64,000 nucleotides of DNA from a virus (lineage: Duplodnaviria; Caudoviricetes): positions 252-64,251 of IMG/VR virus record IMGVR_UViG_3300036770_001877. One strand, written 5' to 3'. Under the pieces are notes generated by a model that worked only from the letters and a program-made list of their open reading frames with translations, was not told the origin of the DNA and did not search any database. Numbering within the stretch: the first letter of the stretch is position 1; each line of letters opens with the position of its first letter. Made by a program: the position numbers and the translations under genes. Positions 1 through 64,000 of the stretch are shown here, piece after piece.

Positions 1-34
1 TGATTTCCCTGATTCAACGGATTTCTCTGACCTA

Positions 35-274: not shown

Positions 275-275
275 C

Positions 276-1793: not shown

Positions 1794-1836
1794 ATAAATT
1801 AATAAAGTAAACTTGATAGGATAAGGAAGGAAAACA

Positions 1837-4507: not shown

Positions 4508-4511
4508 TTAA

Positions 4512-5935: not shown

Positions 5936-5936
5936 A

Positions 5937-6269: not shown

Positions 6270-6277
6270 GAGAGTAA

Positions 6278-15528: not shown

Positions 15529-15746
15529 TGGCCAAAAAAGAAAAGCCTGCAACCATTAAAGCTGGCGGAGCTCCTCACGTTGTCTATAAAAAAGACAAAA
15601 AAGTTATAGTTGACCACCTTGGAAAAAAGGGTGGCAAGTGGGACAAGATAGATTTAACTAAACATACAAAAGCTAAGTCTGTGAAGGAAGGGGTTAAAGC
15701 CGTAAAGAAATGGCATAAAACCCGTCCGCATAAGAAAGGCAAATAA
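15528..15746 (+). CDS. 72-aa Lys-rich protein
   Basis: TAATG-coupled ORF. Confidence 0.8.
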   Translation: MAKKEKPATIKAGGAPHVVYKKDKKVIVDHLGKKGGKWDKIDLTKHTKAKSVKEGVKAVKKWHKTRPHKKGK

Positions 15747-15916
15747 TGGTCAAAAAAGAGAAGCCAGTCTGGGACAAAAAAGACCCAACTCCAGGTAAGT
15801 CTAGTAAACTTAGTAAGAAGCAAAAAGCTTCTGCCAAGGCTAAAGCTAAAGCAGCGGGGCGCCCCTACCCGAATCTAGTGGACAACATGGCTGCGGCCAG
15901 AAAGAAGAAAAAATAA
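15746..15916 (+). CDS. 56-aa Lys-rich protein with GRPYPNLVDNM motif (not in ORF track)
   Basis: TAATG-coupled; MVKKEKPVWDKKDPTPGKSSKLSKKQKASAKAKAKAAGRPYPNLVDNMAAARKKKK. Confidence 0.85.
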   Translation: MVKKEKPVWDKKDPTPGKSSKLSKKQKASAKAKAKAAGRPYPNLVDNMAAARKKKK

Positions 15917-16017
15917 TGTGCGCTAAATGTGGATGCGGGTGCAAGCCTGGTAAGCCAGCGAAGGGATGTAAGTGCTCATGCGCGACCTGCAAATCAGCCA
16001 AAAAGAAAAAGAAGTAG
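15916..16017 (+). CDS. 33-aa metallothionein-like Cys/Lys peptide (not in ORF track)
   Basis: TAATG-coupled; MCAKCGCGCKPGKPAKGCKCSCATCKSAKKKKK, 8 Cys in CxC/CxxC arrays. Confidence 0.75.
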   Translation: MCAKCGCGCKPGKPAKGCKCSCATCKSAKKKKK

Positions 16018-16073
16018 TTTGCGGGTGCGGTAACTGCGCTTGCGGAAAGGACAACAATGGCCAAAACTCCTAG
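15978..16073 (+). CDS. 31-aa overlapping Cys-cluster peptide, or -1 frameshift extension of 15916..16017
   Basis: MRDLQISQKEKEVVCGCGNCACGKDNNGQNS read in the -1 frame. Confidence 0.45.
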   Translation: MRDLQISQKEKEVVCGCGNCACGKDNNGQNS

Positions 16074-16350
16074 CTTTATGAAGGGCAAGTATACAAAGTC
16101 TAAGGACGAGAAGATGGATGCTCGCCTTACTAAAAAGGCTGGCCTAGATAAAGAAGACAAAGAAAAGTTTGAAAAGATGGACAAGGCTCACGGCAAGAAA
16201 AAGAAGCCTAAGACCATTGCTGAAGATAAGAAAATAGACACAGCTCTTATCAAGAAGATTAAAGCCAAGGCTAAAGCCCATGAGAAAAAAGAAGGTAAAA
16301 AGGGCGAAGAGGCTGAGGAAAAACGAGAAAAGAAGAAGGAAAAGAAGTAA
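16057..16350 (+). CDS. 97-aa Lys/Glu-rich charged protein
   Basis: SD AAAGGA; highly charged low-complexity ORF. Confidence 0.8.
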   Translation: MAKTPSFMKGKYTKSKDEKMDARLTKKAGLDKEDKEKFEKMDKAHGKKKKPKTIAEDKKIDTALIKKIKAKAKAHEKKEGKKGEEAEEKREKKKEKK

Positions 16351-51314: not shown

Positions 51315-51542
51315 ATGTTCGTTGAGTTAGTCTGCACCTGCGGTGCATCAATGCAGTTCGAACAATCAAATAACGAAGACGCACTTTGGCTATTAACAAA
51401 CAGATTTGTTGAATCACACACTTCATGCGGGTTTGTGAATAAACTGCAATCTGATAGCCCAGATAAAACTGAACGATATGATTTAAAATTTAAGAGACGA
51501 CCCCGTTTAGATGCGGGATACGAAGAGGACGAGGACGACTAA
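51315..51542 (+). CDS. Small metal-binding protein
   Basis: SD AGGAGG; CTCG...H..C; acidic tail. Confidence 0.65.
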   Translation: MFVELVCTCGASMQFEQSNNEDALWLLTNRFVESHTSCGFVNKLQSDSPDKTERYDLKFKRRPRLDAGYEEDEDD

Positions 51543-51543
51543 T

Positions 51544-52440
51544 ATGCTAGAGACGGCGGAGACCTCCTACTTCAGCGAGCCCGCCGCAGGTCTAGACCCC
51601 CGTCTGTTCCGCAACGGTAAGCTGATACCTAATGTTCGAAACACTATTTTAGAAGTCCTAATTAATTATATTAATTCCCGGTTTGCTGGTTCAAGTGGTT
51701 GGATGACAGCTTGGCTAGCCGGTTCAGGTGTTTCGTTTAATTGGGCCGCTCACAGGGAGCCCGCTGACCTAGACTGCCTTGTCGGCGTGGACTTCGCCAG
51801 ATTTCGTGAAGCAAACCTGTCGTATTCGGGTTTGAGCAACAAAGAGATAGCCCAAATGTTTAATGAAGGGTTTAACGCTGACCTTCACCCAAAGACCAAA
51901 ACATTCATGGATGCGTTTGAGCTGACCTTTTATGTGAACCAACGAGCCAACATTGTAGAGCTAAAGCCTTACGCAGCATATTCCCTGATGTCCGATGACT
52001 GGACGGTTTTCCCTACAGCAGAGCGTATTGAAGAGAACCCTGTTTGGGAACAGAAAGTGTTAAAAGATAAATCCACAGCTGTGGATATTTTAGGACGTTA
52101 CGCAACTGCCATGTCTAAGTTGGAGACCGCTTCCTCTGACCCAGTTCGAGTAAATGCACGAAACGAGTTAAGGTTAGCCATGACCCAAGCCACTGCACTA
52201 TACGAAGATATCCATTCTGGAAGAAAAGTAGCGTTTGGTGAATCTGGTGAAGGTTATAAAGATTTTAGTAATTATCGTTGGCAAGCCGGAAAAAGAACAG
52301 GTGTAGTTCAAGCATTGAAGCGTTTGAAAGAATCGCAAGAACAAGAAGCAAAAGTTTTTGCGGAGAAAACATACGGAGCTGAGTTACCTTCTGCTAATGT
52401 TCTGATACGTAGGGCGGCGTCTCAACGAGCCCAGCAGTAA
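51544..52440 (+). CDS. Pol-beta-superfamily nucleotidyltransferase
   Basis: 'LAGS.VS..W......DLD.LV' (GS...DxD) plus 'ELTFYV'. Confidence 0.75.
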   Translation: MLETAETSYFSEPAAGLDPRLFRNGKLIPNVRNTILEVLINYINSRFAGSSGWMTAWLAGSGVSFNWAAHREPADLDCLVGVDFARFREANLSYSGLSNKEIAQMFNEGFNADLHPKTKTFMDAFELTFYVNQRANIVELKPYAAYSLMSDDWTVFPTAERIEENPVWEQKVLKDKSTAVDILGRYATAMSKLETASSDPVRVNARNELRLAMTQATALYEDIHSGRKVAFGESGEGYKDFSNYRWQAGKRTGVVQALKRLKESQEQEAKVFAEKTYGAELPSANVLIRRAASQRAQQ

Positions 52441-52465
52441 CGACAACAGATACGGAGCATAACTT

Positions 52466-52921
52466 GTGTCAATCATAGTGTTTGCGGACGGCGTAATCCG
52501 CACTGATACAAGAGTTCCAATCTTTGAAGGTATATCTGTTTATCATGCTTTAAATGCAGACGCTAAAGTTACGTTAGCTTTTGATGATGAAGAAGAAGCA
52601 GAGCGTTGGTGCAGAGAACACAAATTTTTAGAAGTTGATGACATATTAAGTAACGACAAATTTAAATTTGAACAAGATAAAAACTTTGCAAAGGTGAAGC
52701 ACCTACAGTCTCAAGGTCCTGTATTTCTTGTAGTCACCGCTGATTTAGATTTAGCTAAAAAATGTATTGAGCACGGAGTTAGAGTATTCCTGTTCTTACA
52801 CCCAAAGTACATAAGTCATAAGTTCAGACCCGATAGTCGTGAGGGAATCCGGTCTTGGGCAGCAATACAGGAGGAGCTCGACCGCCAGATAGAGTTGCGT
52901 TCCGAGGATAAGCGGGCATGA
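52466..52921 (+). CDS. HAD-superfamily phosphatase-like protein (degenerate)
   Basis: N-terminal 'IVFADGVI'; C-terminal 'R.W..I' as in 5'(3')-nucleotidases. Confidence 0.55.
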   Translation: MSIIVFADGVIRTDTRVPIFEGISVYHALNADAKVTLAFDDEEEAERWCREHKFLEVDDILSNDKFKFEQDKNFAKVKHLQSQGPVFLVVTADLDLAKKCIEHGVRVFLFLHPKYISHKFRPDSREGIRSWAAIQEELDRQIELRSEDKRA

Positions 52922-54381
52922 ATATTATTTTTTTAGGGGCCGAAGTCCCCAGCAATCGAACCATCCTTACAGCTGCAGGTGCTAGCTGCGTGGGAGTTAG
53001 CTTTTGGGGCCTCCAGAAGCGCGGAATGCCTAAAACTAAAAAATACGAGCTAAAAAATTATTTTCTTGACGACGTCAGCGTGTATTTAATTCCAGGTTTA
53101 CCCTCAAAGCAAACCTTCAGTAAGACTGAGCTAGACGACTTCGCCGCCGACTACGAGCAGTTCGTGGCGGAGAACCTAGACCGCCTTTCAGGATTCATGG
53201 AGATAGACCACCCAGACATAGCCAAGCCTTTCATAGAGGAACAGCGCATAACCAGTTGGGCTGATGTTCCAGAGGATAAGTTCTGGCCGGTATACCAGCT
53301 CGGAGAGGACCTAGAGTCCCTGTCAGTTCGGTATTTAAATGTGGCTATCCCAGGGCAATTAATAGAAAATGAGACCAAATTAATTACGGTAATGCGCCGT
53401 GCCCACCAGCAACATGGCACCACCTTCCACGCCATTGCAGCTGCAAAGCCGGACAACCTACGGCAGATGCCAGTTGAGACTGCCAGCACCCTATCGTGGC
53501 TATCGCCGATGATGCGGGGCGAAACGATAGTTTGGGACGGGTCGAAGTTAGTTCGCTATCCGAAACGGATGAAGGAACAAGCACGACCGCGTTACAAGAG
53601 CATATACGAGCGGGCTGGGCTAGACTTCGACAAGATTCTAGCCGACGATGCCGTTGAGATTTCAAAGCTTGCGATATGGTCATACCTCCAGTATCAAGAC
53701 TGGCACAACAAAACAGGACAGGACATAGTAACTATGAGTGAGTGGAGGGAAGTGGAGGAAAGTGGGGAAACTACCCCCAATGAAGTTACCATGAGGGGGG
53801 TCCCAATGCGGAAACTTGAACCCCGAAAACCAGAGGAAATGGGCGTACTTCCAGTCCTAAATGTTGAGATTTCAACCACGATTGAACCCGATGAAACAGG
53901 CAACCAAGTTATCAAAGAGGTGCCAGTACTTAGGTCAAGTGGAACCAGTTTACGGATGTGTGACACCTGCTTCGTGTCAGCTAATTGCCCCGCCTTTAAA
54001 CCACAGAGTACCTGCGCTTTCAACCTTCCAGTAGAGGTAAAGACCAGAGAACAGTTGAAAGCACTAATCAATGCTTTACTTGAAATGCAGGGTCAAAGAG
54101 TGGCTTTCGCTAAGTTTAGCGAGGATTTGAACGGCGGTTATCCCGACCCAAACGTCGGGCAAGAGTTGGATAGATTTTTCAAAATGCTTAAAACCATCAA
54201 GGAATTGGATGACTCGCGGGAGTTCATTCGCATGACAGTTGAGCGTCAAGGAGCGGGCGGTGTACTATCCGCTATCTTCGGAGACAGGGCTCAGGCACTT
54301 AAAGAATTGCCCAATGAAGGGCTCAATGAGCACAAGACTAACGAGGTAATTAAGAAGATAACGGATGAAGAGAAGGAGTAG
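52918..54381 (+). CDS. TGT/DpdA-like TIM-barrel protein fused to a Cys4 domain
   Basis: 'E.D', 'FWPVY', 'FHAI', 'TASTLSWL...G' pattern of TGT-like phage proteins; C-terminal CDTC...C...C. Confidence 0.5.
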   Translation: MNIIFLGAEVPSNRTILTAAGASCVGVSFWGLQKRGMPKTKKYELKNYFLDDVSVYLIPGLPSKQTFSKTELDDFAADYEQFVAENLDRLSGFMEIDHPDIAKPFIEEQRITSWADVPEDKFWPVYQLGEDLESLSVRYLNVAIPGQLIENETKLITVMRRAHQQHGTTFHAIAAAKPDNLRQMPVETASTLSWLSPMMRGETIVWDGSKLVRYPKRMKEQARPRYKSIYERAGLDFDKILADDAVEISKLAIWSYLQYQDWHNKTGQDIVTMSEWREVEESGETTPNEVTMRGVPMRKLEPRKPEEMGVLPVLNVEISTTIEPDETGNQVIKEVPVLRSSGTSLRMCDTCFVSANCPAFKPQSTCAFNLPVEVKTREQLKALINALLEMQGQRVAFAKFSEDLNGGYPDPNVGQELDRFFKMLKTIKELDDSREFIRMTVERQGAGGVLSAIFGDRAQALKELPNEGLNEHKTNEVIKKITDEEKE

Positions 54382-54779: not shown

Positions 54780-56816
54780 ATGGCTATTTCGTTTAATTTA
54801 TCTTCAGATTTCGTAGATTCATACAGAGGCAAGCAAGTGCCATGGGGATACAAGGATGCCGCGGGTAACGCCTTAGGTGAGATTACCTTCCTGCGTACCT
54901 ACTCCCGCCTAAAAGAGGATGGAACCAAAGAGACTTGGGTAGATGTCTGCGAGCGGGTAATCAACGGGATGTACTCCTTACAGAAAGACCATTGTAAGTC
55001 GAACCGATTGCCGTGGAACGATAGCAAGGCACAGGCATCAGCGAAGGAAGCCTTCGACCGCATGTTCAACTTGAAGTGGACACCGCCGGGGCGAGGTCTA
55101 TGGGTGATGGGCACACCGTTGGTGAACGAACAGAAGAATAGTGCCGCCCTACAAAACTGCGCCTTTGTGTCCACCAACTCGATGACCAAAGCAGACCCGT
55201 CTAAACCATTTGCCTTCCTCATGGAAGCGTCCATGCTTGGAGTGGGTGTTGGCTTCGATGACAAGGGAGCCGATAAGGAGTTCATGGTCTATGAGCCTAG
55301 TGGCGCACCAGCGTTGATTGTGATTGCAGACACCAGAGAGGGATGGGTCGAGTCCACCGCTATATTGATAAATTCGTATTTAAAGCCCGACCAACCAGTA
55401 TATGAATTTGATTATTCGCTAATTAGAAAGGCTGGAGAGCCTATCCGTACATTTGGAGGCACAGCTGCCGGGCCAGAGCCGCTAATGAGACTACATGCTT
55501 CTATATCCAAAATATTTAAAAAGCGCGTTGGAAATATTTTAACTCGTACCGATATTGCAGATTTAGGCAATTTAATAGGAGTATGTGTTGTCTCCGGCAA
55601 CGTCCGCCGCAGTGCGGAGCTACTGCTCGGTAGGCTAGAGGATGACAACTTCCTGAACTTGAAGAACCCTTCTGTGTACCCCGAGCGCAACTCATACAAC
55701 CCTGACGAGCCTGGCTGGGCATGGATGTCAAACAATTCTGTCGAGGTATCGGTAGGCGATGACCTAACTAAAATCGTAGATGGAATCAGGTTAAATGGCG
55801 AGCCCGGCGTTGTGTGGATGGATGTTACCCGCAAGTATGGTCGCCTCATTGACCCACCTAACAACAAGGACTGGCGTGCTGTTGGATACAACCCCTGCGC
55901 CGAGCAATCCCTTGAATCGTTTGAGTGTTGTACGCTGGTCGAGACCTACTTGAATCGCCACGATAGCCTTGATGATTTCAAGCGAACTCTCAAGTTTGCC
56001 TATCTGTACGCAAAGACGGTTACTCTTCTTCCGACTCATTGGGAAGAAACGAACGCTATCATGCAAAGAAATAGAAGAATCGGAACTTCAATTTCTGGTA
56101 TTGCTAATTTCGCAGACCGAAAAGGCATCCCTGTCCTGAAGGAGTGGATGGACGCTGGCTACGCAGTAATCCAAAACTATGACAAAGGCTACTCCGAGTG
56201 GCTGGGAATCCGTGAATCAATAAAGATGACAACGGTGAAACCAAGCGGAACTGTGTCAATCCTTGCTGGTGAATCTCCTGGGGTTCATTGGACTCCTGGC
56301 GGTCAATACTTCCTTCGAGCCATTAGGTTTTCGAACGAGGACGCCATGCTTCCGTTGTTCAAAATGGCAAACTATACTGTCGAGCCTGCTAGTGAATCAC
56401 CCAAGACTACCTCAGTAGTTTTCTTTCCTGTTGAATCTGACTCAAAGCGTTCTGAGAAAGATGTAACCATATTTGAAAAAATGTCTCTTGCTTCTATGGC
56501 TCAACGGCATTGGTCTGACAACTCAGTTTCGGTTACTGTCTCGTTTAATCAGGAAAATGAAGGCGAGCATATTGGTACTGTGCTACACATGTTCGACGGG
56601 CAGCTGAAGACTGTCTCCTTCTTACCTATGGGAAATACTGTTTATCCTCAAATGCCTTATACTCAAATAAATAAAGAGGACTACGAGGAGTATAAATATA
56701 AATTGTTCCCAATAGATTTCTCTGGAATCTACGATGGTCTGGGCTCAGATGCTATCGGTGAAGCGTATTGTACAACTGACGCTTGCGAGATTAAATTGAT
56801 AAAGGATAATCAATGA
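54780..56816 (+). CDS. nrdJ: Class II (adenosylcobalamin-dependent) ribonucleotide reductase, monomeric RTPR type
   Basis: 'RTYSR', 'PPGRGLW', 'NC', 'GNVRRSA', NPCAEQ.L...CC.L.E, 'TTVKPSGT', C-terminal C..DAC. Confidence 0.95.
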   Translation: MAISFNLSSDFVDSYRGKQVPWGYKDAAGNALGEITFLRTYSRLKEDGTKETWVDVCERVINGMYSLQKDHCKSNRLPWNDSKAQASAKEAFDRMFNLKWTPPGRGLWVMGTPLVNEQKNSAALQNCAFVSTNSMTKADPSKPFAFLMEASMLGVGVGFDDKGADKEFMVYEPSGAPALIVIADTREGWVESTAILINSYLKPDQPVYEFDYSLIRKAGEPIRTFGGTAAGPEPLMRLHASISKIFKKRVGNILTRTDIADLGNLIGVCVVSGNVRRSAELLLGRLEDDNFLNLKNPSVYPERNSYNPDEPGWAWMSNNSVEVSVGDDLTKIVDGIRLNGEPGVVWMDVTRKYGRLIDPPNNKDWRAVGYNPCAEQSLESFECCTLVETYLNRHDSLDDFKRTLKFAYLYAKTVTLLPTHWEETNAIMQRNRRIGTSISGIANFADRKGIPVLKEWMDAGYAVIQNYDKGYSEWLGIRESIKMTTVKPSGTVSILAGESPGVHWTPGGQYFLRAIRFSNEDAMLPLFKMANYTVEPASESPKTTSVVFFPVESDSKRSEKDVTIFEKMSLASMAQRHWSDNSVSVTVSFNQENEGEHIGTVLHMFDGQLKTVSFLPMGNTVYPQMPYTQINKEDYEEYKYKLFPIDFSGIYDGLGSDAIGEAYCTTDACEIKLIKDNQ

Positions 56817-56980
56817 AGCGGATAATCAAGAACGCAGATGAACAAGACGCATATACTTTTGCTCGCAAGTTCTACTGCTACCTATCTAGACCGGGTATAG
56901 TAAAAAAGATTAAGCGTAGGACTCACAAGCGCGAGCGCAGAGAATCTAAACGCTGGATAACTGAACAACTAAATGATTAG
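56813..56980 (+). CDS. 55-aa basic phage protein (not in ORF track)
   Basis: ATGA overlap; MKRIIKNADEQDAYTFARKFYCYLSRPGIVKKIKRRTHKRERRESKRWITEQLND. Confidence 0.7.
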   Translation: MKRIIKNADEQDAYTFARKFYCYLSRPGIVKKIKRRTHKRERRESKRWITEQLND

Positions 56981-57028
56981 TTAGTCTGCCGTTGGCTTCT
57001 CTCTTGTAAGCATTAAACGGCAGGCTAA
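56981..57028. terminator. Inverted repeat at the convergence of the two transcription units
   Basis: TTAGTCTGCCGTT...AACGGCAGGCTAA. Confidence 0.6.
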
Positions 57029-57031
57029 ACG

Positions 57032-57130
57032 CTACTCATCTTCTTCGTCGTCAGTTTCTTCGTAAATGTCGTCGTCCTCTATGTTGGGCGTAGGTCTCTC
57101 CCATAGAGGTTCAGGGATTATGAAACTCAT
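57032..57130 (-). CDS. 32-aa very acidic peptide (not in ORF track)
   Basis: ATGA-coupled to 57127..57384; MSFIIPEPLWERPTPNIEDDDIYEETDDEEDE. Confidence 0.6.
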   Translation of the reverse strand: MSFIIPEPLWERPTPNIEDDDIYEETDDEEDE

Positions 57131-57384
57131 ACTCTTACTTCAGTATGGTTTCTCATGCTCAATGGCTTCCCTTCGGGATTAGCCGAGGTAACTTCCCAAG
57201 TTAGTCGAGAGCGACCAATTTGTTCAGCGCACCACTTCTTTGCTTTTGCGCTGGTTGTCCATGCCGAGCAATTAGCCTTTTGGCTTTTGCCTTCGCGGTC
57301 TTTGGCGTTGTATTCAGCGAGCCATGCGCCACCCTTCTCAGGGTTCTTTCCTACTGTGAAGTAGTAGTGTAGTTTGTCTGTCAT
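57127..57384 (-). CDS. Hypothetical protein
   Basis: Purine-rich leader; clean ORF. Confidence 0.65.
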   Translation of the reverse strand: MTDKLHYYFTVGKNPEKGGAWLAEYNAKDREGKSQKANCSAWTTSAKAKKWCAEQIGRSRLTWEVTSANPEGKPLSMRNHTEVRV

Positions 57385-57450
57385 GTGCCTGTATCTCTCT
57401 TTCTCGATTAGGTAAGGCGGATAAATACTACCACCATGCGAACATGCGTT

Positions 57451-57606
57451 CTATTTCTCGTCTAGTATTCGGTATTCAACTTCGTCTAATAAATTATTTT
57501 CTAACGAGTGCCTCTTGGCATACCACATCTCTGCTGTCATCTCCTGGAACCACTCAACGGGGTCAAGCTCATTGGGAGTGCTTATCTCCACCATTATAGT
57601 TTTCAT
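57451..57606 (-). CDS. 51-aa acidic protein (not in ORF track)
   Basis: MKTIMVEISTPNELDPVEWFQEMTAEMWYAKRHSLENNLLDEVEYRILDEK; AG-rich leader. Confidence 0.55.
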   Translation of the reverse strand: MKTIMVEISTPNELDPVEWFQEMTAEMWYAKRHSLENNLLDEVEYRILDEK

Positions 57607-57671
57607 ATATTTGTTTCTCTCTTTCTCTCTCTTTTACTGTATTAAATTGCTACTTCCTTACTACTCCTGCT

Positions 57672-58133
57672 TTATACCCCGGTGCGGTCCGGCGGCGGGC
57701 TATTTTTTGTGACCCAGAAATAGGGTAGGTCAGAGGGTATTCCACTAAAATAAACGGAGTAATAATTTATATCTTTTCTCAACAAGTTTGATTTATGGCT
57801 AGTGTGTAATCTCTCCTCTCCAAGCCAGATGGGTGCTCTCTTGCTACCGCTACATGACTCGGGAAAATACTTACCCATATCGGTTATCTTTTGGCGCAGG
57901 GTGTCTTTGTATCCTCTGCTAATCCACTCATCACATATCGCTTGACCATACTCGATAAGACTATCTTCATGCCCGCACCACATAAGCACCGCAGGGTGGT
58001 TGCGCCACCCTTTCGTCATGCCCGCGAGCACCCTGAGTATCTGATAAGCCTCAACCCTTTGTTTGCCTAGACGCTTGTTATCCAATACCTGAGCGCACTC
58101 GGAAAAGTTTGGGTAGGGCAGGAAAGTCTGAAT
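57672..58133 (-). CDS. Pyrimidine-dimer DNA glycosylase-like protein (MSMEG_6728 / DenV-related family)
   Basis: 'QTFLPY..F...A..LD.KRLGKQRVE..QI','GW.NHPA..MW','P.WLG....H.SH.SNLLRKD','LPY.W'; probable ATT start. Confidence 0.9.
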   Translation of the reverse strand: MQTFLPYPNFSECAQVLDNKRLGKQRVEAYQILRVLAGMTKGWRNHPAVLMWCGHEDSLIEYGQAICDEWISRGYKDTLRQKITDMGKYFPESCSGSKRAPIWLGEERLHTSHKSNLLRKDINYYSVYFSGIPSDLPYFWVTKNSPPPDRTGV

Positions 58134-58135
58134 AG

Positions 58136-58315
58136 TTAGACCTGACCTTCTACGCGGGTAGTCATACACCGAGCGCACTCGACTTGTGTTACTCCGTCGC
58201 TCATCAGGTATCGGGTGTCTGTAACTTCCCCGTGTTCATTGTAAGTATGTCTATTCCATATTGCTTCTAAGACATTGAACACTTCAACATTGTCACACTC
58301 TAGGCATTTCGGCAT
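58136..58315 (-). CDS. 59-aa zinc-ribbon protein (not in ORF track)
   Basis: SD GGGGAG; MPKCLEC...ECARC... Confidence 0.7.
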   Translation of the reverse strand: MPKCLECDNVEVFNVLEAIWNRHTYNEHGEVTDTRYLMSDGVTQVECARCMTTRVEGQV

Positions 58316-58418
58316 TGGACTCCCCCTCTATACACTCGAAGCAGACTTCTACCTGCTTGTTGTTTTCTTTTACCGATACTGTCTGAACACCATAACTAGA
58401 GCAGAAATCACATATCAT
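58293..58418 (-). CDS. 41-aa zinc-finger protein (not in ORF track)
   Basis: TAATG-coupled; MICDFC...VCFEC... Confidence 0.65.
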   Translation of the reverse strand: MICDFCSSYGVQTVSVKENNKQVEVCFECIEGESNAEMPRV

Positions 58419-58579
58419 TAGTAATCCCACACTTCATTGTCGTTGTCATTGTTTTCGGATAGGAAAAAGTCGGTCATACACTTTGGACAATTTCCGTTTG
58501 TTGTGATAGTGACGGGCGATAAGCACCCGTCACACCACATTTCACTATTATCGCGCTTGCGTTTTGCCATACGCGCCAT
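58418..58579 (-). CDS. ~50-aa zinc-ribbon protein (not in ORF track)
   Basis: ...WCDGC...NCPKC... Confidence 0.65.
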   Translation of the reverse strand: MARMAKRKRDNSEMWCDGCLSPVTITTNGNCPKCMTDFFLSENNDNDNEVWDY

Positions 58580-58588
58580 AATAGTTAC

Positions 58589-60562
58589 TCACAAGTAACT
58601 TAGCAACCTTTGGCGAACAATATCTTTGGCGACCATTATCAACGCAGAAGGCTCGGCAATAGCGCGGAATATATCCGCACCATGCGCTAACTTGGCAGGG
58701 TCAGAGTAGTGCTCGATACTTCCGAGATACACGACCGCAACAAGACAACCTTGTTCTTTCATGCGTGCGATTATGTTGTCGTTCTCATTACCCCACCATT
58801 GTCCGTCAGTAAGTATCACAACAAGTTTGGTAGGTCGTTGGCTTGCCAACATGACTCGCTCGGTTTCGATTAGACCATAGTGCGGGTCTGTTCCACCGCA
58901 GGAAGAAACGAATCTGTAATCAGTATCCGCTCGCTCCTCACCTGAATACAACAATTTTGATACATGGTTGAAAGTGACTACGGATACACGCCCGTCAATT
59001 TGTTCAATAGCGCGTTTTATCACCCACGCTGAACGGCATACCGAGTCAATATCCCTGCCCATTGAGCCCGAGTGGTCGAGTAGTAGCACCGCTTCAATTT
59101 CATGGTTGTCGTTGCCGATTTCCCACCTATCGAATAGTTTGCCTATGTCGTTCAGGTCAGAGTTCATGGCTCGCTTCATGTTGAGGCGACCACTTGGCTT
59201 CTCCCTGTTCCACGCGGGGTCTGCTTCAATGCGAAGTTGCTCTAGTTCTTGGGCGAACATGCGAGCGGTTGCTATGTCACCATGCGTGGGCGAACGCAGG
59301 TCACCTGTTTTGCGACCGAGAATTGACTTATTCGCATTTGATTTAGTAATAGATAATTGTGTTTCCCGAACCTTATTTAGTAATTCCTTATTTTGTTTGG
59401 CTTGGGTCACTTCCTCAGTAAGTTTGTCGAGTGCTTTTTGGTCGCGCTTTGCTTGTTCTGCCATAGGCGCGTTTGTTTCCTCATCACCCGAATTACCTGC
59501 CGAGTCACCAACACCTTTTAGTTTTTTATCATCAGGTTGTTGAGTGTCACTATCGAAGTCAGGGCACGCTTGGTCGTTATGTATGTCCATGCCCTCTTGT
59601 TGCTTCCCTGTTTCAGGTCGCCCGTTCTTTAGTGGTCGGCGACCACCACACCCGTTTGGAGTGTTGATATTAGGTGGCAGGTAGCGGTGGAGAGTTCTTA
59701 TCAGAAACTTTGCCTTCTCATAATCACGGGGAAAGACAAGGGTGCGGTAAGCGTTGATAGTGCGCCACACAATACGGGCTTGTGTTGCTCCATATTTACG
59801 GGCATACGCTCGACCTAGTTCTGTTCTAGTTTCGTATGAGAAATAACGGCGACCCGCTAACAAGATAAAGTTGTCAGAGAAATCGAGCCCGTCTGCTTGT
59901 TTGTCATTGAGTATGTAATCGCCGAGCGTTGCTATCAGGAAGTTGCGAGTAGTTGGAAACTTCTCGACAAGATAGGTTTCAGCGCGGTTGTCCTCTAATA
60001 TGTTGAAACTAACTTGATAGTCTTGTTCCATTACCCATTGACCGAGTTCAGTTCCTATGCGTGGGGAGTATAGGAGATGAGCGAGTTCATGGTAATTGAG
60101 CCCATGAATACCCATAATCGTATTATCGTCATTGTCTTTTATTATTTTTTCATTGAAAGATATGACTTTGCCGTCGTTCCATGCTGGAGCGTCTAAGTCA
60201 TTGTCCTCAGGCATACCGATACGGACTTCAATATCGAGCCCTGTGAGAATACTGTCGGCACGCTCATACACCGAAGCAATACTGTCTAGCAAGTTATTAC
60301 GGACTTGAAGTAGTTGTTGCTTTTCCTCACGGATAGTTTCGAGTTCGTTCTTGTAGTCCTCTTGTAGGTCGAAAAATCTTGCGTGGTTTTTCTCCATGAC
60401 TTCATCAGGAGTCATGCCACGCTTCTTACCTATCTCGGTAGCCTTGTCGAGGTTTAGGTCAATGACATACTCAGGGTCAGGGTTGTCGCGCATGAAGTCG
60501 TCGAAACTAATCCACTCATTATCGCTCAGTTCTGCTCTGAGGTTGCGGTTTATCTTTGGCAT
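58589..60562 (-). CDS. Metallopeptidase-like (HEXXH) + VWA domain protein (CobT-like)
   Basis: HELAH, 'N.LED.R.E'; MIDAS DHSGSM, GGT, ILTDG. Confidence 0.88.
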   Translation of the reverse strand: MPKINRNLRAELSDNEWISFDDFMRDNPDPEYVIDLNLDKATEIGKKRGMTPDEVMEKNHARFFDLQEDYKNELETIREEKQQLLQVRNNLLDSIASVYERADSILTGLDIEVRIGMPEDNDLDAPAWNDGKVISFNEKIIKDNDDNTIMGIHGLNYHELAHLLYSPRIGTELGQWVMEQDYQVSFNILEDNRAETYLVEKFPTTRNFLIATLGDYILNDKQADGLDFSDNFILLAGRRYFSYETRTELGRAYARKYGATQARIVWRTINAYRTLVFPRDYEKAKFLIRTLHRYLPPNINTPNGCGGRRPLKNGRPETGKQQEGMDIHNDQACPDFDSDTQQPDDKKLKGVGDSAGNSGDEETNAPMAEQAKRDQKALDKLTEEVTQAKQNKELLNKVRETQLSITKSNANKSILGRKTGDLRSPTHGDIATARMFAQELEQLRIEADPAWNREKPSGRLNMKRAMNSDLNDIGKLFDRWEIGNDNHEIEAVLLLDHSGSMGRDIDSVCRSAWVIKRAIEQIDGRVSVVTFNHVSKLLYSGEERADTDYRFVSSCGGTDPHYGLIETERVMLASQRPTKLVVILTDGQWWGNENDNIIARMKEQGCLVAVVYLGSIEHYSDPAKLAHGADIFRAIAEPSALIMVAKDIVRQRLLSYL

Positions 60563-61929
60563 TAGAGGCTCACCTCATCTACCTGCTTGGGTGCTACCGC
60601 GACTTCAATGCCTAGTTCCTTGCCGATATTGTGCTTGTAAGTGTCGAGCACTAGGGTCACCGCTTCACGCTCGGTGTCGTCAATGAAAGTGTTTGCGTAG
60701 CACTCGGTCGCGTAGTCGAGCCCGAGATTTTCTGTGTTCTTGATGAAATTGACGAGAGAGCGGGTCGAGATAGGGGTGTTGAGTTTGCCCTTTATCATCA
60801 GGTCACGGAGTTTGTCTGCCATTTCGAGCAACGCCTTGTTCTTGACAAGTTTGTTTTCAATGCTCGGGTCGTATGGGAAGTTGAGTTTGTGATGAAATCT
60901 ATCTACCCACGCTTGGTTCATTGGGCGAGTTCCGCGATAGTGCGGGTTCATGTCTGCGACTATCAGGAGTTCAGGGTGAGCCCTGATAACTTCACCGCCA
61001 TTTTCCATGATTTGTATTTCACGGCGGTCGTCAAGTAAGCCGAACAAGATAGTCGTGACACGCTCGGGCATGAAATTGACTTCGTTCAGTAGGAGCACGC
61101 CACCATTTCTAACAAGGTCTGTGACCGCGCCGTCTTGCCACCTAAAGTGTCCGTCAGGCGTTGGAATCCATGAGCCGAATAACTGTGTCGGTTCAAGTCC
61201 GATATGGCTTGAAACATTGTAGTAGCGGTGTCCTCTCGCGCTTGCGTAGGCGAGCACGCTCATTGTCTTACCGCTTCCCGCGTGACCCATAATCAAGATG
61301 TTTTCGTGATTACGCATGGCGTTGTCGTAGATGTCGAAGTCGAGTCGCCCTGCGATTTTGCGGTTGATGTAGGTCTGCGACCACTTTATTGCTGGAACGC
61401 TGGCTAGTTCCATATTTGTAAATACCGAAACGGGTTGGCGAGAGCCCACCTGCGCTGGCGTAGCGGAAAGAGAAACTTCCTGAGCGGGGATATTTATTTC
61501 AGGTTTGACCTGTAATGGAACAAGTCTAATAGGCGTAGTTCTGCGCCCGTCTTTGAGGTAATCGTTGAGGGTGTTGTCACCTGCGGTCAGGCGGTCTGTA
61601 AGACTTGATACGACAACCCTGTGTTGCTCGCCCTGCTCGATTTGGTCTGCTTGCTCGGTCGTCACTAGGAGTTTGACCCCGAGCGTTGTGATTTGCCCGT
61701 AAGACAAGGCTTCCGAGTCTTTGAGAGTGAGAGCGACCGCCGTAGGCGAGTGAGTGGTGCTGGTGAGTGGCAGGTCGTCTAGTTCGACCTGCTTCCATGC
61801 TTGACCGCGACCCCGAGAGCCTGTGCTGACTCGGTGGAAGTAACGGACTTCGTTATTGACGGGTGCGACAATAGTTTGTTCCTTCGCCCCGTTCGTATCG
61901 GTAGTTTCTACCAATAGCGCAATAGACAT
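60562..61929 (-). CDS. MoxR/CobS-like AAA+ ATPase
   Basis: GHAGSGKT, LLLNEVN, 'MNP.Y.GT...N.A..DRF', 'STR'; true start probably MSIALL at 61929 (SD AAAGG). Confidence 0.92.
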   Translation of the reverse strand: MSIALLVETTDTNGAKEQTIVAPVNNEVRYFHRVSTGSRGRGQAWKQVELDDLPLTSTTHSPTAVALTLKDSEALSYGQITTLGVKLLVTTEQADQIEQGEQHRVVVSSLTDRLTAGDNTLNDYLKDGRRTTPIRLVPLQVKPEINIPAQEVSLSATPAQVGSRQPVSVFTNMELASVPAIKWSQTYINRKIAGRLDFDIYDNAMRNHENILIMGHAGSGKTMSVLAYASARGHRYYNVSSHIGLEPTQLFGSWIPTPDGHFRWQDGAVTDLVRNGGVLLLNEVNFMPERVTTILFGLLDDRREIQIMENGGEVIRAHPELLIVADMNPHYRGTRPMNQAWVDRFHHKLNFPYDPSIENKLVKNKALLEMADKLRDLMIKGKLNTPISTRSLVNFIKNTENLGLDYATECYANTFIDDTEREAVTLVLDTYKHNIGKELGIEVAVAPKQVDEVSL

Positions 61930-61980
61930 AGTGAGCCTTTCAGTAATCACGCCGAGCCCTATTGCTGGCGTAGTGGGTCG

Positions 61981-62009
61981 AGTGTAATGCCATTTGTAAA
62001 ATATGTAAA
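61981..62009 (-). promoter_or_regulatory. Sigma70-type promoter TTTACA-N17-TACACT for the AAA/VWA operon
   Basis: Canonical spacing, ~50 nt upstream of ATG 61929. Confidence 0.6.
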
Positions 62010-62039
62010 TACGGCGTTCCACTATTTTTCGTGTCGTTT

Positions 62040-62630
62040 TTCGTGTCACCTGCTCGACCACCCACCGACAACCTTCGCACCGCCACCACCGCCACCTATA
62101 CAACCTGAACAACCTATGGACAATTTTACGCTGTTACAACGGCAGGGCAGGAGAGAGCCCGAGAGCCCTATTCGCCTAATTTATTTTCAGATTTCACCCA
62201 TATAACACTAATAAGAGAGAGCAATATACCGCTCGCTCGCACCGCCCTCTGGCGTGCGTTAGCACTCGCCTAGTGGGAGTGCTAGTAACTACGCTCGCCC
62301 TGCCCTTGCCGTAGGTCTGGCTATACCAACGGCTCGACAAGCCTGTCGTAGGCAGTAGCCCTGTTGGGCTCGCCAAGCCTGTCGAGCCGAGCAACTTCGT
62401 TGCCCGAAGCCCCGCGTGCCACAATGCCTGTGCCTCTGGCAGGTGACGAGCCCGCGCTCGCCTATATTGCTATTTCCCCAATATATGTTTCAGATTCAAC
62501 CTGTGACATATACATAGCCATATACGCACTCTCTCTGCTCTCTCTGCCCTGCGAGCCGAGCAAGCCTGTCTATCTCTCCCTCAGGAGTCGCTGACTCTCT
62601 CGTTGGGCTCTCTAACTCTCGGAACGAGAA
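62040..62630 (-). ncRNA. Candidate large structured non-coding RNA
   Basis: No credible ORF; nested inverted repeats; TTGACA promoter-like site at 62656-62661 pointing into it. Confidence 0.4.
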
Positions 62631-62691
62631 GCCTTTATCACAACGGCAGGCTCTCTGTCAAGCCCCAACGGGCTATTGTGAGGCAATTCAC

Positions 62692-62775
62692 TTGTTTGGG
62701 TTGGAAGCCCTAAGCCCTGAAGCGAAGCTTCATGCCATTTGCTAGGGCTGGGCTTAGGGCTTCCAACCCAAACAA
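62692..62775. repeat. Perfect 26-bp inverted repeat with a 32-nt spacer
   Basis: TTGTTTGGGTTGGAAGCCCTAAGCCC / GGGCTTAGGGCTTCCAACCCAAACAA. Confidence 0.95.
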
Positions 62776-62777
62776 AA

Positions 62778-62807
62778 CTGCCCTGAGCACGCAGGCACTC
62801 AGGGCAG
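62778..62807 (-). terminator. 10-bp hairpin, probable terminator for the 63862-62832 unit
   Basis: CTGCCCTGAG...CTCAGGGCAG followed by TTTTGTTT on the minus strand. Confidence 0.65.
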
Positions 62808-62831
62808 GTCTGTCTTAGCGGGAAGGGAGTG

Positions 62832-63092
62832 CTAAGAATCCAACAAAGGCTCGACAACCTTGTGCGGTCCTGAAGAAAGGCTTTCCAAGATGTCGTAAAA
62901 GGTTGAGGAAGGCTTTTCCTCTGTTGGAACAATCGAATCTACGCTTGTTTCGGCTCCATTTGTCAAGCCAATGTTGTCGTAGTCAATACCACTCATAGCC
63001 GTAGCGATAGCAACGGCGTGGTCGTAGTCATTTGCCTGAATGACTCCTTGCGCCTCGTAATGAATCGTGGCATACACCTGATAGAACGGCAT
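62832..63092 (-). CDS. Hypothetical protein
   Basis: TAATG-coupled to the upstream gene; SD GAGGGG. Confidence 0.6.
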   Translation of the reverse strand: MPFYQVYATIHYEAQGVIQANDYDHAVAIATAMSGIDYDNIGLTNGAETSVDSIVPTEEKPSSTFYDILESLSSGPHKVVEPLLDS

Positions 63093-63862
63093 TAGACTAA
63101 CCCCTCAATCGTGTCAGGAACAACAAGTTTGTTGTATTCAGCGCACCGATACGAAGCACGAACCTCATCATACTCCTCTAGAGTATTGGAACAAGCCCAG
63201 CAATCACCATACATTTCTATTTTCAGCGCATGGTCTATACGAATGTCATGCTCGTATGTTTGCTCGCCTGACTCCCAAAACACCTCTCCTGCGAAACAGT
63301 CGTTCTCGTCAATAAATCTACTGTGGAAGGACAATGTTGGGAACATCTCAGCAAGTTTGTCTATTGCTTGGATAGGTGGTGACCATGCTGTCGAGTAGGC
63401 ATACTTCAGTTTGCCTTCCTCAACCAGCAACTGTGCGCCGTCTATCTCCCACTTAGTGCCCCACTCACGAATGTTCCAATGATACCAATCCTGCTTTGTC
63501 TCAACTTCACGCTGAAACTGTGACAAGATGTCCTCACTCATGGGTGGCATGTTGCTAATAACGCCGTCTAACTTCTTTACGAACTCCTCAGGGCTTTCGG
63601 GCTGTTCTTGCTTAGCCTTTTCCACCCGAGCCTCGCGTTCAGCGAACTCCTCATCAGAGGTGAATCCGTGATAAGTAGCCAAGTCTGTCGGGCTCGCTAT
63701 GTTCCATAACAAGAAAGAGCCGACAATGGTGGCTTCGTTTATTTCATTTGTCATAAAGTCTTGGTGAAAGGTCTTGTAGGACTTTCCTACCATCTCTCTC
63801 AGTTTGTCAAGACTATCTTGGTCGCCTGTTATTGTTAGGCGGTTTTCAACCCAGTTGGGCAT
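63092..63862 (-). CDS. DUF1281 / YubB (Api92-like) ferredoxin-fold protein
   Basis: MPNW..N.L.I.G; 'WY.WNI..WGTKW'; 'TAWSPP'. Confidence 0.85.
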   Translation of the reverse strand: MPNWVENRLTITGDQDSLDKLREMVGKSYKTFHQDFMTNEINEATIVGSFLLWNIASPTDLATYHGFTSDEEFAEREARVEKAKQEQPESPEEFVKKLDGVISNMPPMSEDILSQFQREVETKQDWYHWNIREWGTKWEIDGAQLLVEEGKLKYAYSTAWSPPIQAIDKLAEMFPTLSFHSRFIDENDCFAGEVFWESGEQTYEHDIRIDHALKIEMYGDCWACSNTLEEYDEVRASYRCAEYNKLVVPDTIEGLV

Positions 63863-63903
63863 AGGTTCTCCTTCCCTATGTGGAGTGTGCTCTCCACGCG
63901 CTG

Positions 63904-63933
63904 ATTATCGTGGTAGCGGTGACTCTCTGTCAA
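63904..63933 (-). promoter_or_regulatory. Sigma70-type early promoter TTGACA-N18-GATAAT
   Basis: Upstream of SD AAGGAG and ATG 63862; TTGACAGAGAG is shared with the site at 62651-62661. Confidence 0.65.
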
Positions 63934-64000
63934 TACTTCGCAAGCATAAATCTCTATAACGATTTGATAACGATAGCAGGCTTGTTTGGGTTGGGCTTAG

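What the first reader, a model, noticed from the sequence alone, without database searches (positions are those of the whole stretch)
57720..64000. About 6.3-kb minus-strand region purged of many 4-bp palindromes (candidate first-injected, restriction-proof DNA)
Seen by reading line by line: from about 57720 to the window end I found no GGCC, CCGG, GTAC, TGCA, TTAA, ACGT or GATC, and only one AGCT (inside the hairpin near 62725). CCWGG and GCNGC also look absent. About 20-25 copies of each 4-mer would be expected by chance, and AGCT, GGCC and GTAC are abundant in the first 55 kb. TCGA, CGCG, CATG and AATT are not depleted. Knowledge: leading regions of phages with staged DNA entry, such as T5, are poor in restriction sites. 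Inference: this segment enters the cell first and unprotected, and its genes set up protection for the remainder.
Basis: partly seen in the sequence, partly recalled or inferred. Interest (0 to 1): 0.75.

Follow-up and report, generated by a model that had tools for sequence, protein, structure and literature searches.

The report
Restriction-site-free early block of a phage
The last 7 kb of this uncultured phage contig, its only backward-facing gene block, has lost almost every short palindrome that restriction enzymes cut, probably because this DNA must work in the host before the phage can protect the rest of its genome.

Summary
Observation confirmed. From window 57690 to the contig end there is no ACGT, CCGG, GGCC, GTAC, TGCA, TTAA or GATC and one AGCT. 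Markov expectation is 12-26 each. These eight are the lowest of all 136 strand-symmetrised 4-mers, and no non-palindrome is missing. 6-bp palindromes: 4 seen, 45 expected. Codon shuffling does not explain it, and non-coding DNA is purged too.

The zone (57014-64000) is the only minus-strand block: DUF1281_C-like protein, AAA_5 ATPase, VWA protein, DenV-like glycosylase. The record is a fragment, and in relatives the block runs about 3.7 kb further.

Five of eight related records show a purge in the same block, each with its own motif set. That argues for ongoing selection, not a horizontal-transfer relic.

The closest cultured relatives, Streptomyces myoviruses, have short terminal repeats and carry such a reversed block at one physical end. 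First entry is plausible but unproven, because no termini could be mapped here.

T5's first-step DNA shows no comparable purge. This scan has noted at least 18 similar islands in other phage genomes.

The parts
57014..64000 (.). Palindrome-purged zone. It holds 5 sites of the seven regionally avoided 4-mers in 6987 nt. The core 57690-64000 holds one AGCT. It runs to the contig end and probably beyond.
   Evidence: Background is 24.8 sites per kb. Non-coding part: 2 vs 34.6 expected. Coding part: 3 vs 138.6 expected.
63975..64000 (-). 3' arm of a second hairpin (inverted repeat) that is cut by the contig end. It repeats the arm motif found at 62691-62704.
   Evidence: alignment with L006/L001/L096, where the full hairpin stands between a terminator and this promoter; motif recurrence (6 matches vs 0.62 expected).
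63904..63933 (-). Sigma-70-like promoter TTGACA-18-GATAAT (11 of 12), upstream of the first gene held in the contig.
   Evidence: It is one of only 2 sites scoring at least 11/12 in the whole record.
63092..63862 (-). 256-aa acidic protein (pI 4.5, net charge -26) with a DUF1281_C (Api92-like ferredoxin-like) domain.
   Evidence: (PF18406, E 1.8e-9); clusters are mostly viral, and one is fused to LPD28. Identity to L006 is 51%.
62832..63092 (-). 86-aa acidic protein (pI 4.05), 80% identical in relatives.
   Evidence: No family at the thresholds used.
62778..62807 (-). Terminator-like hairpin (13 pairs, then a T run).
62692..62775 (.). Perfect 26-bp inverted repeat with a 32-nt spacer. The spacer holds the zone's only AGCT (62726).
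   Evidence: The homologous hairpins of relatives also keep an AGCT in the loop.
62633..62661 (-). Second promoter-like unit that shares TTGACAGAGAG with the one at 63933.
   Evidence: 2 exact matches, both in the module. Sequence read.
62113..62632 (-). About 0.5 kb without a credible ORF, rich in short repeats. It is purged like the genes.
   Evidence: No Rfam family reaches its threshold.
60562..62112 (-). AAA_5 (MoxR/CobS-like) ATPase. The true start is probably near 61929.
   Evidence: PF07728, E 2.4e-20. (phrog_249, E 4.8e-45). (46% to Gordonia phage AAA-ATPases). (69% to L006, from residue 62).
58589..60562 (-). 657-aa VWA-domain protein, the CobT-like partner of the ATPase. Its stop and the ATPase start overlap.
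   Evidence: VWA 21.4 bits, below the cut-off of 23.8; the G011 homologue passes VWA_2; conserved in G006, G007, G009 and G011.
58136..58579 (-). Two small Cys-containing ORFs (53 and 59 aa).
   Evidence: No family hit at useful thresholds.
57672..58178 (-). DenV-like pyrimidine-dimer DNA glycosylase.
   Evidence: PF03013, 90.9 bits; homologues lie in the reversed blocks of G006, G007 and G009.
57127..57384 (-). 85-aa basic protein, the last gene of the reversed block. It converges on nrdJ (54780-56816, + strand).
   Evidence: 78% to L006..

Best explanation
This is a restriction-avoidance island on the phage's early block.

The only gene block that faces against the rest of the genome must function in the host before any phage-made protection exists. 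Every Type II restriction site in it is therefore lethal and has been selected away, in genes and spacers alike. The rest of the genome is shielded by something set up later or delivered with it, so it keeps those sites.

The most likely specific form is polar, delayed DNA entry. The block lies at a fixed genome end, enters first and is transcribed inward by host RNA polymerase. The remaining DNA arrives, or becomes exposed, only after early products act.

Shown: the purge, its specificity, its conservation, and the block architecture.
Inferred by homology: the terminal position.
Inferred only: entry order, and which gene protects the rest.
For: Specific to palindromes:
- The eight lowest O/E of 136 4-mers are palindromes.
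- 64 six-bp palindromes: 4 vs 45.2.
- Symmetric 5-mers are also gone.
- It is not codon usage.

DNA-level selection:
- 1395 non-coding nt hold 2 sites vs 34.6 expected.

Same block in relatives:
- 5 of 8 records examined show a purge there: G000, G001, G011, G009, G010.
- Motif sets differ. G001 avoids ACGT, ATAT, CCGG, CGCG, GGCC and GTAC. G011 avoids ACGT, ATAT and GGCC, with a 14,725-nt site-free run. G009 avoids AGCT and TTAA, with a 13,797-nt run.
- Module genes are shared across these lineages.

Positional pattern:
- The zone overshoots the convergent junction by 3-4 kb in G011 and G009. That fits a positional cause better than an operon-bounded one.

Genome ends in cultured relatives:
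- They have fixed ends with short terminal repeats, and the reversed block sits at one end. LuckySocke has a 344-bp repeat and GiJojo a 197-bp repeat. BRock has a 221-bp repeat (PMC7453282, passages).
- TerL is 53-54% identical to G011's.

Precedent in print:
- Restriction motifs matter only in the first-injected DNA of Murciavirus and of T5 (PMC12455610, abstract and discussion).
Against: - No termini could be mapped. All 20 runs found are held as contigs only.
- G011's 'terminal repeat' is an assembly overlap inside a gene.
- G010's ends overlap imperfectly.
- In G001, G011, G009 and G010 the first 0.5-2.5 kb of the reversed block is not purged. That is odd if entry starts at the divergent junction.
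- The cultured relatives with proven ends show no purge in their terminal block.
- G006 and G007 share the module genes but show no purge.
- No gene in the block is a recognised anti-restriction gene.
- There are no T5 A1/A2/dmp homologues.
- Staged entry is not known for contractile-tailed phages (recalled, not checked).
- The main block is moderately poor in TCGA, CATG and CGCG, while the module is not. The model does not predict this.
Confidence: 0.55

Rival explanations
1. Early-operon integrity without polar entry. The whole genome enters at once. Cuts in the main block are tolerated because early products quickly inhibit restriction or because phage recombination and ligation mend the fragments. 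A cut in the early block, however, prevents those products from being made.
For: - The same purge data apply.
- The phage encodes a UvsX-like recombinase and a Cas4-like exonuclease.
- The BASEL paper suggests that ligation contributes to T5's restriction resistance (PMC8594841, passages).
- This model needs no terminal position, which suits the circular-looking assemblies.
Against: - The purge covers 1.4 kb of non-coding DNA.
- It overshoots the operon into converging genes in G011 and G009.
- Repair of many double-strand cuts (about 25 sites per kb for seven 4-cutters) seems implausible.
Confidence: 0.2
2. An unmodified island in a modified genome. Virion DNA is protected by a base modification made by the conserved NTase / HAD-like / dpdA-like transglycosylase cluster next to the block. 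The early block stays unmodified, for example so that host RNA polymerase can read it, and therefore has to avoid sites.
For: - A TGT/DpdA-like gene lies at 52918-54381 (phrog_887).
- Its homologue in GiJojo is annotated as dpdA-like.
- The cluster is adjacent to the block in all 7 relatives tested.
Against: - TTAA and ATAT contain no G, yet they are among the block-only avoided motifs.
- G006, G007 and LuckySocke carry the same cluster without any purge.
- No mechanism is known that would spare one region (recalled).
Confidence: 0.1
3. A horizontal-transfer legacy or mobile cassette. The block came from, or circulates among, phages of hosts with many restriction systems, and its composition simply reflects that history.
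For: - Block genes are more diverged between G000 and G001 (51-69%) than the flanking genes are (64-85%).
- Contigs over the last 2-4 kb have 1.6-5 times the depth of their neighbours in 4 runs, as if shared by several strains. The tool warns that contig depth is not copy number.
- DUF932 and DUF1281 relatives occur on plasmids.
Against: - The block and its gene order are conserved across lineages whose DNA polymerases are only 52-58% identical.
- Each lineage avoids a different motif set, so the purge is renewed in place.
- The coding-strand A content of the block (0.291) equals that of the rest.
Confidence: 0.08
4. A cause unrelated to host restriction. Examples are avoidance of the phage's own palindrome-cutting nuclease, or avoidance of DNA or RNA structure in a heavily transcribed block.
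For: - ATAT and TATA, for which I recall no common Type II enzyme, are avoided in G011 and G001.
- The avoidance is very broad: nearly all 6-bp palindromes.
Against: - 4-bp palindromes form no structures.
- The block keeps long hairpins.
- The motif sets differ by lineage, as host restriction repertoires do.
- Eight of the 16 four-bp palindromes are kept at normal levels.
Confidence: 0.05

Closest known systems
First-step-transfer (pre-early) DNA of phage T5 and its insensitivity to EcoRI
   Same: It is an early-gene segment of about 8-10% of the genome that lacks restriction sites which the rest of the genome keeps. A site gained there makes the phage sensitive (as cited in the discussion of PMC12455610; original papers recalled, not read).
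   Different: - T5's segment (1-9140 of NC_005859) shows no general purge. Its 4-bp palindromes are near expectation, and 6-bp palindromes are 130 vs 185, against 567 vs 677 in the next 40 kb.
- It lies in a 10.2-kb terminal repeat with an injection stop signal.
- T5 is a siphovirus.
- There are no A1/A2/dmp homologues here.
- Staged entry is proven for T5 and not for this phage.
Leading (first-injected) region of Autographiviridae: T7, and Murciavirus against the Mme2I Type I system
   Same: Restriction motifs count only when they lie in the first-injected DNA. The leading region is variable and carries anti-defence genes (PMC12455610, abstract and discussion).
   Different: That case is one Type I motif in podoviruses with known ends. 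Here seven 4-cutters, symmetric 5-mers and nearly all 6-bp palindromes are absent over at least 7 kb of a myovirus-type genome with unknown ends.
Streptomyces myoviruses BRock, LuckySocke and GiJojo (closest cultured relatives)
   Same: - TerL is 53-54% identical to G011's, and DNA polymerase is 39-40% identical to G000's.
- They share the NTase / HAD-like / dpdA-like cluster.
- They have one long forward block plus a reversed block of about 10-11 kb.
   Different: - Their reversed block shares no detectable genes with this one.
- It is not purged: 6-bp palindromes 151 vs 185.
- They carry an ArdA-like gene just before it.
- Their ends are known, with 197-344-bp repeats.
Leading regions of conjugative plasmids
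   Same: This is first-entering DNA that is enriched in anti-defence genes. DUF932- and DUF1281-type genes of this block have plasmid relatives.
   Different: In 1751 enterobacterial plasmids the leading region is 'not consistently depleted' in 4-8-bp palindromes (PMC13478746, abstract only). Plasmid DNA enters single-stranded (recalled).

Membership tests
Restriction-site avoidance island (selection against Type II sites in part of a genome) | The depletion is specific to palindromic restriction-type words and does not affect k-mers in general. | tested here: met
   the 8 lowest O/E of 136 4-mers are all palindromes; symmetric 5-mers and 6-bp palindromes are also gone.
Restriction-site avoidance island (selection against Type II sites in part of a genome) | Not explained by protein sequence, codon usage or base composition. 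| tested here: met
   500 synonymous shuffles, with minima of 3-12 per motif against 0 observed. Markov-2 expectation; non-coding DNA is purged too.
Restriction-site avoidance island (selection against Type II sites in part of a genome) | Maintained by selection: it recurs in homologous regions of diverged relatives. | tested here: met
   5 of 8 records, each with its own motif set.
Restriction-site avoidance island (selection against Type II sites in part of a genome) | The avoided words match the host's restriction-modification specificities. | not testable with these tools
   The host is unknown. The genome-contig scan gave sheath relatives of at most 36% identity in many phyla.
T5-type first-step-transfer region | Lies at the leading genome terminus or inside the terminal repeat. 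| tested here: inconclusive
   - The record is a fragment.
- The runs are held as contigs only.
- Cultured relatives place the reversed block at a fixed end.
- The metagenomic relatives assemble as circles.
T5-type first-step-transfer region | Encodes A1/A2-type DNA-transfer proteins. | tested here: not met
   tblastn with T5 dmp, A1 and A2 against G000, G001, G006-G011 and the LuckySocke pieces gave no hit at E <= 0.01.
T5-type first-step-transfer region | An injection stop signal, and experimentally staged entry. | not testable with these tools
   This needs infection experiments. Only hairpins and repeats were seen.
CobS/CobT-like (MoxR AAA+ / VWA) pair | An AAA_5 ATPase next to a VWA-domain protein. 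| tested here: met
   AAA_5 at 73.4 bits (cut-off 22), and VWA at 21.4 bits (below the cut-off of 23.8); the G011 homologue has VWA_2 at 31 bits (cut-off 27). The two genes overlap by one base.
DenV / T4 endonuclease V family (Pyr_excise) | Match to PF03013 over its cut-off. | tested here: met
   90.9 bits (cut-off 23), profile positions 2-76 of 81. Catalytic residues were not checked.

The most novel reading that the evidence does not exclude
The purged zone is a physical ruler of how much DNA a contractile-tailed phage exposes before a generic, sequence-independent shield is in place.

This group of about 95-105-kb myoviruses would then deliver its genome in two stages, or deliver most of it coated, for example by the Lys-rich small virion proteins encoded at 15188-16350. 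Only a naked leading segment of about 10-19 kb would be exposed.

The conserved block genes (AAA+/VWA pair, DUF1281_C, DUF932) would form a new anti-Type II or DNA-entry system unrelated to T5 A1/A2.
Probability: 0.15. Interest if true: 0.8.

Novelty: new variant of a known kind. Interest (0 to 1): 0.55.

Why it matters
Sub-genomic restriction avoidance is in print for single motifs: the T5 EcoRI case, and a Type I motif in Murciavirus. Here a whole block has been stripped of seven 4-cutter sites and nearly all 6-bp palindromes. Its edges are sharp, and relatives show different motif sets.

If the reading holds, three things follow:
- Such islands mark, from sequence alone, which DNA of an uncultured phage is exposed first and roughly how much of it.
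- The avoided words are a read-out of the restriction enzymes of the unknown host.
- The genes in the island are candidates for new anti-restriction or DNA-entry functions.

The result also warns that whole-genome counts of restriction sites understate avoidance.

Tried and rejected
- Megablast of the region against 50,697 phage records: no match.
- Host search with the sheath protein in genome contigs: 555 relatives, the best at most 36% identical and spread over many phyla. No host clue.
- Metagenome scan with the DUF1281_C protein, to see what lies beyond the contig end: 4 loci, all 49-53% identical, none of the same strain.
- Rfam on 56500-64000: three sub-threshold miRNA-family hits on the hairpin, none near its gathering score.
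- tRNAs: 0.
- Promoter enrichment as a test of 'early' status: 12 sites vs 9.6 +/- 3.2 in shuffles, not significant. Only 2 sites of at least 11/12 in G000, and none in G001, G011 or G007.
- Terminal repeats between the two ends of G000: none.
- Reads for termini: all 20 runs are contigs.
  - Contigs of X1, X3, X4 and X8 all stop 0-42 nt around window 64000. One X3 contig runs into adapter-like letters after 63990. The last 2-4 kb has 1.6-5 times the contig depth of its neighbours.
  - I read the common break as an inverted-repeat artefact and the depth as strain sharing. Neither is used as evidence of a terminus.
- PDB sequence search for the DUF1281_C-like and DUF932 proteins: 0 hits each.
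- Paper search for DUF932/DUF1281/DUF4192 together with 'leading region' or 'anti-restriction': none of the 20 papers listed (of 58 found) holds a DUF term. My recollection that these families belong to plasmid leading regions is therefore unsupported in print.
- Paper search for phage MoxR/VWA anti-defence roles: nothing useful in the 15 listed.
- Link between the purge and the dpdA-like cluster or the Lys-rich proteins: the cluster is present in all 7 relatives, purged or not.
- No structure was predicted, and no complex job or large protein search was run. These would not have decided the main question.
- Supplementary tables were not opened (for example S5 of PMC8594841, site counts per phage).

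Full report
THE OBSERVATION

In window 57720-64000 (6281 nt) there is no ACGT, CCGG, GATC, GGCC, GTAC, TGCA or TTAA, and there is one AGCT. The mononucleotide expectation is 22-26 each. The rest of the window holds 131, 82, 0, 126, 181, 197, 301 and 378 copies.

The last sites before the zone are two CCGG at 57679 and 57689. The lone AGCT is at 62726, in the spacer of a perfect 26-bp inverted repeat.

Several controls show that this is not a compositional effect.
- With a second-order Markov expectation on both strands (12.0-26.5 per word), these eight palindromes are the eight lowest of all 136 strand-symmetrised 4-mers. The next lowest are TATA (0.40) and CCAG (0.44). No non-palindrome is missing. 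Strand or composition bias therefore cannot be the cause.
- I shuffled synonymous codons among the seven CDS of the block (5406 nt, 500 shuffles). This gave 10.3-22.1 sites per word and never fewer than 3. Protein sequence and codon usage therefore cannot be the cause either.

- Symmetric 5-mers are gone: ACSGT 0 vs 14.5, CCWGG 0 vs 6.9, GCWGC 0 vs 6.2, CASTG 0 vs 5.2, GCSGC 1 vs 10.5.
- Of the 32 six-bp palindromes that do not contain a forbidden 4-mer, only 3 copies are present against 44.2 expected.
- All 64 six-bp palindromes together give 4 vs 45.2 in the block, against 667 vs 706 in the rest of the genome.

The zone starts near 57014. From there to 64000 (6987 nt) there are 5 sites of the seven regional words, against a background of 24.8 per kb. 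The 1395 non-coding bases hold 2 sites against 34.6 expected, and the coding bases hold 3 against 138.6. The longest site-free run is 5037 nt, against at most 296 nt in window 1-55000.

GATC is absent from the whole 64,251-nt record, so it is not a regional feature. AATT is mildly low (15 vs about 25).

WHAT IS THERE

The record is a 64,251-nt virus contig, and the window is bases 252-64251 of it.

The main block is on the + strand. It holds collagen-like fibres, sheath, tape measure and baseplate. It then holds helicase, primase, DNA polymerase, a UvsX-like recombinase, a TGT/DpdA-like protein and NrdJ. I found no terminase, portal or capsid gene. Related records of 32 kb are rated 34% complete and records of 64-66 kb are rated 67% complete. 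The record is therefore about two thirds of a roughly 95-kb genome.

The purged zone is the only minus-strand block. Read in its own direction, it contains:
- a TTGACA-18-GATAAT promoter (63933-63904);
- a 256-aa DUF1281_C-like protein and an 86-aa protein, both strongly acidic (pI 4.5 and 4.05);
- a terminator, the 26-bp hairpin and a second promoter-like unit that shares TTGACAGAGAG;
- about 0.5 kb without an ORF;
- an AAA_5 MoxR/CobS-like ATPase and a VWA protein;
- two small Cys-containing ORFs;
- a DenV-like pyrimidine-dimer glycosylase;
- an 85-aa protein that converges on nrdJ.

The contig stops inside the 3' arm of a second hairpin. In relatives this hairpin stands between a terminator and this same promoter.

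RELATIVES

Six viral contigs carry the ATPase at 69% identity. They are syntenic from the DUF1281_C gene to nrdJ and beyond. Block genes are 51-80% identical, and flanking genes are 64-85% identical.

In these contigs the reversed block continues about 3.7 kb upstream of the point where our contig ends. That stretch holds small ORFs, a DUF932 protein and a DUF4192-like protein. It then meets diverging genes with normal palindrome density. The block here therefore most likely also continues beyond the contig end.

I examined eight records for architecture and palindromes.
- G000, G001, G011, G009 and G010 have one reversed block of 8-17 kb that is purged.
- G006 and G007 have the block and its genes but no purge.
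- G008 (63% GC) has neither a clear block nor an island.

The avoided sets differ between lineages.
- G001: ACGT 3/28, ATAT 4/37, CCGG 0/14, CGCG 0/18, GGCC 3/30, GTAC 0/27, AGCT 11/56.
- G011: ACGT 6/53, ATAT 0/49 and GGCC 0/18 in the block. AGCT, CCGG, CGCG and GATC are zero, and GCGC has two copies, across the whole genome.
- G009: AGCT and TTAA only.
- G010: AGCT, GGCC, GTAC and TTAA.

Site-free runs reach 14,725 nt in G011, 13,797 nt in G009 and 7,932 nt in G010, where the mean spacing is 100-200 nt.

The ATPase, the VWA protein, DenV and the 85-aa protein are shared among G006, G007, G009 and G011. DUF932 is shared with G010. The block is therefore old in this group, and the purge is renewed lineage by lineage. 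This argues against a transfer relic and for continuing selection.

Two details do not fit a simple 'whole operon' picture. The first 0.5-2.5 kb of the block is not purged in G001, G011, G009 and G010. The purge also overshoots the convergent junction by 3-4 kb into nrdJ or the dpdA-like cluster in G011 and G009.

WHERE THE ENDS ARE

I could not map them.
- All 20 runs that hold the region are kept as contigs.
- Contigs from four runs of three studies, and the record itself, break within 0-42 nt of window 64000. That point lies inside an inverted repeat, which is a common cause of assembly breaks. I do not take it as a physical end.
- G011's 123-nt 'terminal repeat' lies inside a 271-codon frame.
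- G010's ends overlap at 93-99% identity.
- These last two observations look like circular assemblies.

The best indirect evidence comes from cultured relatives. G011's TerL is 53-54% identical to that of the Streptomyces myoviruses BRock, LuckySocke, Alone3 and GiJojo. The DNA polymerase of G000 is 39-40% identical to theirs, and they share the NTase / HAD-like / dpdA-like trio.
- LuckySocke has an exact 344-bp direct terminal repeat.
- GiJojo has one of 197 bp.

In both annotated records, the last 10-11 kb before the right end is a minus-strand block of about 20 small genes that is transcribed inward. An ArdA-like gene lies just before it.

By homology of architecture and terminase, the reversed block of this group probably lies at a fixed genome end. 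Those Streptomyces phages show no purge in their own block (6-bp palindromes 151 vs 185) and share no block genes with ours.

HOW IT MOST LIKELY WORKS

The data require selection against Type II restriction sites that acts on this stretch of DNA as such, spacers included, and not on the rest of the genome.

The simplest cause is that this DNA must stay intact and be expressed before any phage-made protection exists, while the rest is shielded afterwards. I favour polar, delayed entry from the adjacent terminus (confidence 0.55) for three reasons:
- the terminal position in cultured relatives;
- the inward transcription of the block;
- the positional overshoot of the purge.

This is the logic shown for T5, where an EcoRI site gained in the first-step DNA makes the phage sensitive. 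It is also the logic shown for Murciavirus against a Type I system (PMC12455610, abstract and discussion).

Words that are avoided genome-wide would then mark enzymes that the shield does not cover. GATC is avoided genome-wide in five records, and AGCT, CCGG, CGCG and GCGC are as well in G011.

What the shield is remains open. No block gene belongs to a known anti-restriction family. The acidic first two proteins and the DUF1281_C-LPD28 fusion cluster are only hints.

The rivals are listed in the Rival explanations section with the evidence for and against each:
- early-operon integrity without polar entry;
- an unmodified island in a dpdA-modified genome, which is weakened because TTAA and ATAT lack G and because unpurged relatives carry the same cluster;
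- a transfer legacy;
- a cause unrelated to restriction.

COMPARISON WITH WHAT IS KNOWN, AND NOVELTY

The kind is known: sub-genomic restriction avoidance in early or first-entering DNA. This case differs from the known ones in three ways.
- It is far more extreme than the textbook case. T5's first-step DNA has 4-bp palindromes near expectation and 6-bp palindromes at 0.70 of expectation, against 0.84 in the next 40 kb.
- Plasmid leading regions of Enterobacterales are reported as 'not consistently depleted' in 4-8-bp palindromes (PMC13478746, abstract).
- It is not a member of the T5 first-step family. There are no A1/A2/dmp homologues, the virion type is different, and staged entry is untested.

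Within this scan the phenomenon is not unique. At least 18 earlier notes describe similar purged early blocks in other uncultured phages, mostly of freshwater Actinobacteria. One note concerns a look-alike of this very block. Two of those notes report that only gene units are purged, not the gaps between them. Here the gaps are purged too.

I found no paper describing a general palindrome purge confined to one block of a phage genome in my two relevant searches. That is a limited search.

VERDICT

I class it as a new variant of a known kind, with interest 0.55.

Noticed in passing
window 1-64000 and the whole record; also G001, G009, G010, G011: GATC is completely absent from the 64,251-nt record (Markov expectation about 152) and from four related records. 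G006 and G007 have 500-590 copies. This is genome-wide avoidance, distinct from the block-only set.
   Followed up: partly
window 1-57000 vs 57690-64000: The main block is moderately poor in TCGA (60 vs 106), CATG (120 vs 184) and CGCG (83 vs 126), whereas the purged block is not (32/37, 31/23, 22/30). The two compartments have opposite signatures for these words. Unexplained.
   Followed up: no
window 62692-62775 and 63975-64000; L006 about 7925-8010: A recurring unit of terminator, 26-28-bp inverted repeat and promoter precedes block genes. The hairpin loop keeps an AGCT in G000 and in L006, L001 and L096, although AGCT is otherwise purged. It could be an operator or a processing site.
   Followed up: partly
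window 59700-64000: Logan contigs over the last 2-4 kb have 1.6-1.9 times the depth of neighbouring contigs in X1, X4 and X8, and 5 times in X3 (62164-63990). All contigs break within 0-42 nt of 64000, and one X3 contig runs into adapter-like letters after 63990. This is probably strain sharing plus an inverted-repeat break. A physical end is not excluded.
   Followed up: partly
L006 5732-6766 (DUF932), and plasmid hits H57-H71: The DUF932 protein of the relatives' block has homologues in 130 plasmid records. In 13 of the 15 rows listed (all 13 Streptomyces rows) the gene lies within about 1-5 kb of a record end. This suggests a link between the family and replicon ends. Record topology was not checked.
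   Followed up: no
window 15188-16350: A chain of very Lys-rich small ORFs (57, 55, 72, 56, 33 and 97 aa) lies inside the virion gene block. Three of them have weak homologues in G006, G007, G010 and G011. If they are packaged with the DNA, they could be a generic shield. This is pure speculation.
   Followed up: partly
window 51511-54381; G006-G011, LuckySocke, GiJojo: An NTase / HAD-like / TGT(dpdA)-like trio is conserved in all 7 relatives tested and always lies near the 3' end of the reversed block. GiJojo's annotators call the last gene dpdA-like. It is a possible DNA-modification pathway.
   Followed up: partly
LuckySocke 101870-102541; GiJojo 103430-104083: The cultured relatives carry an ArdA-like antirestriction gene on the forward strand just before their terminal reversed block. 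No ArdA homologue was seen in G000's block.
   Followed up: no
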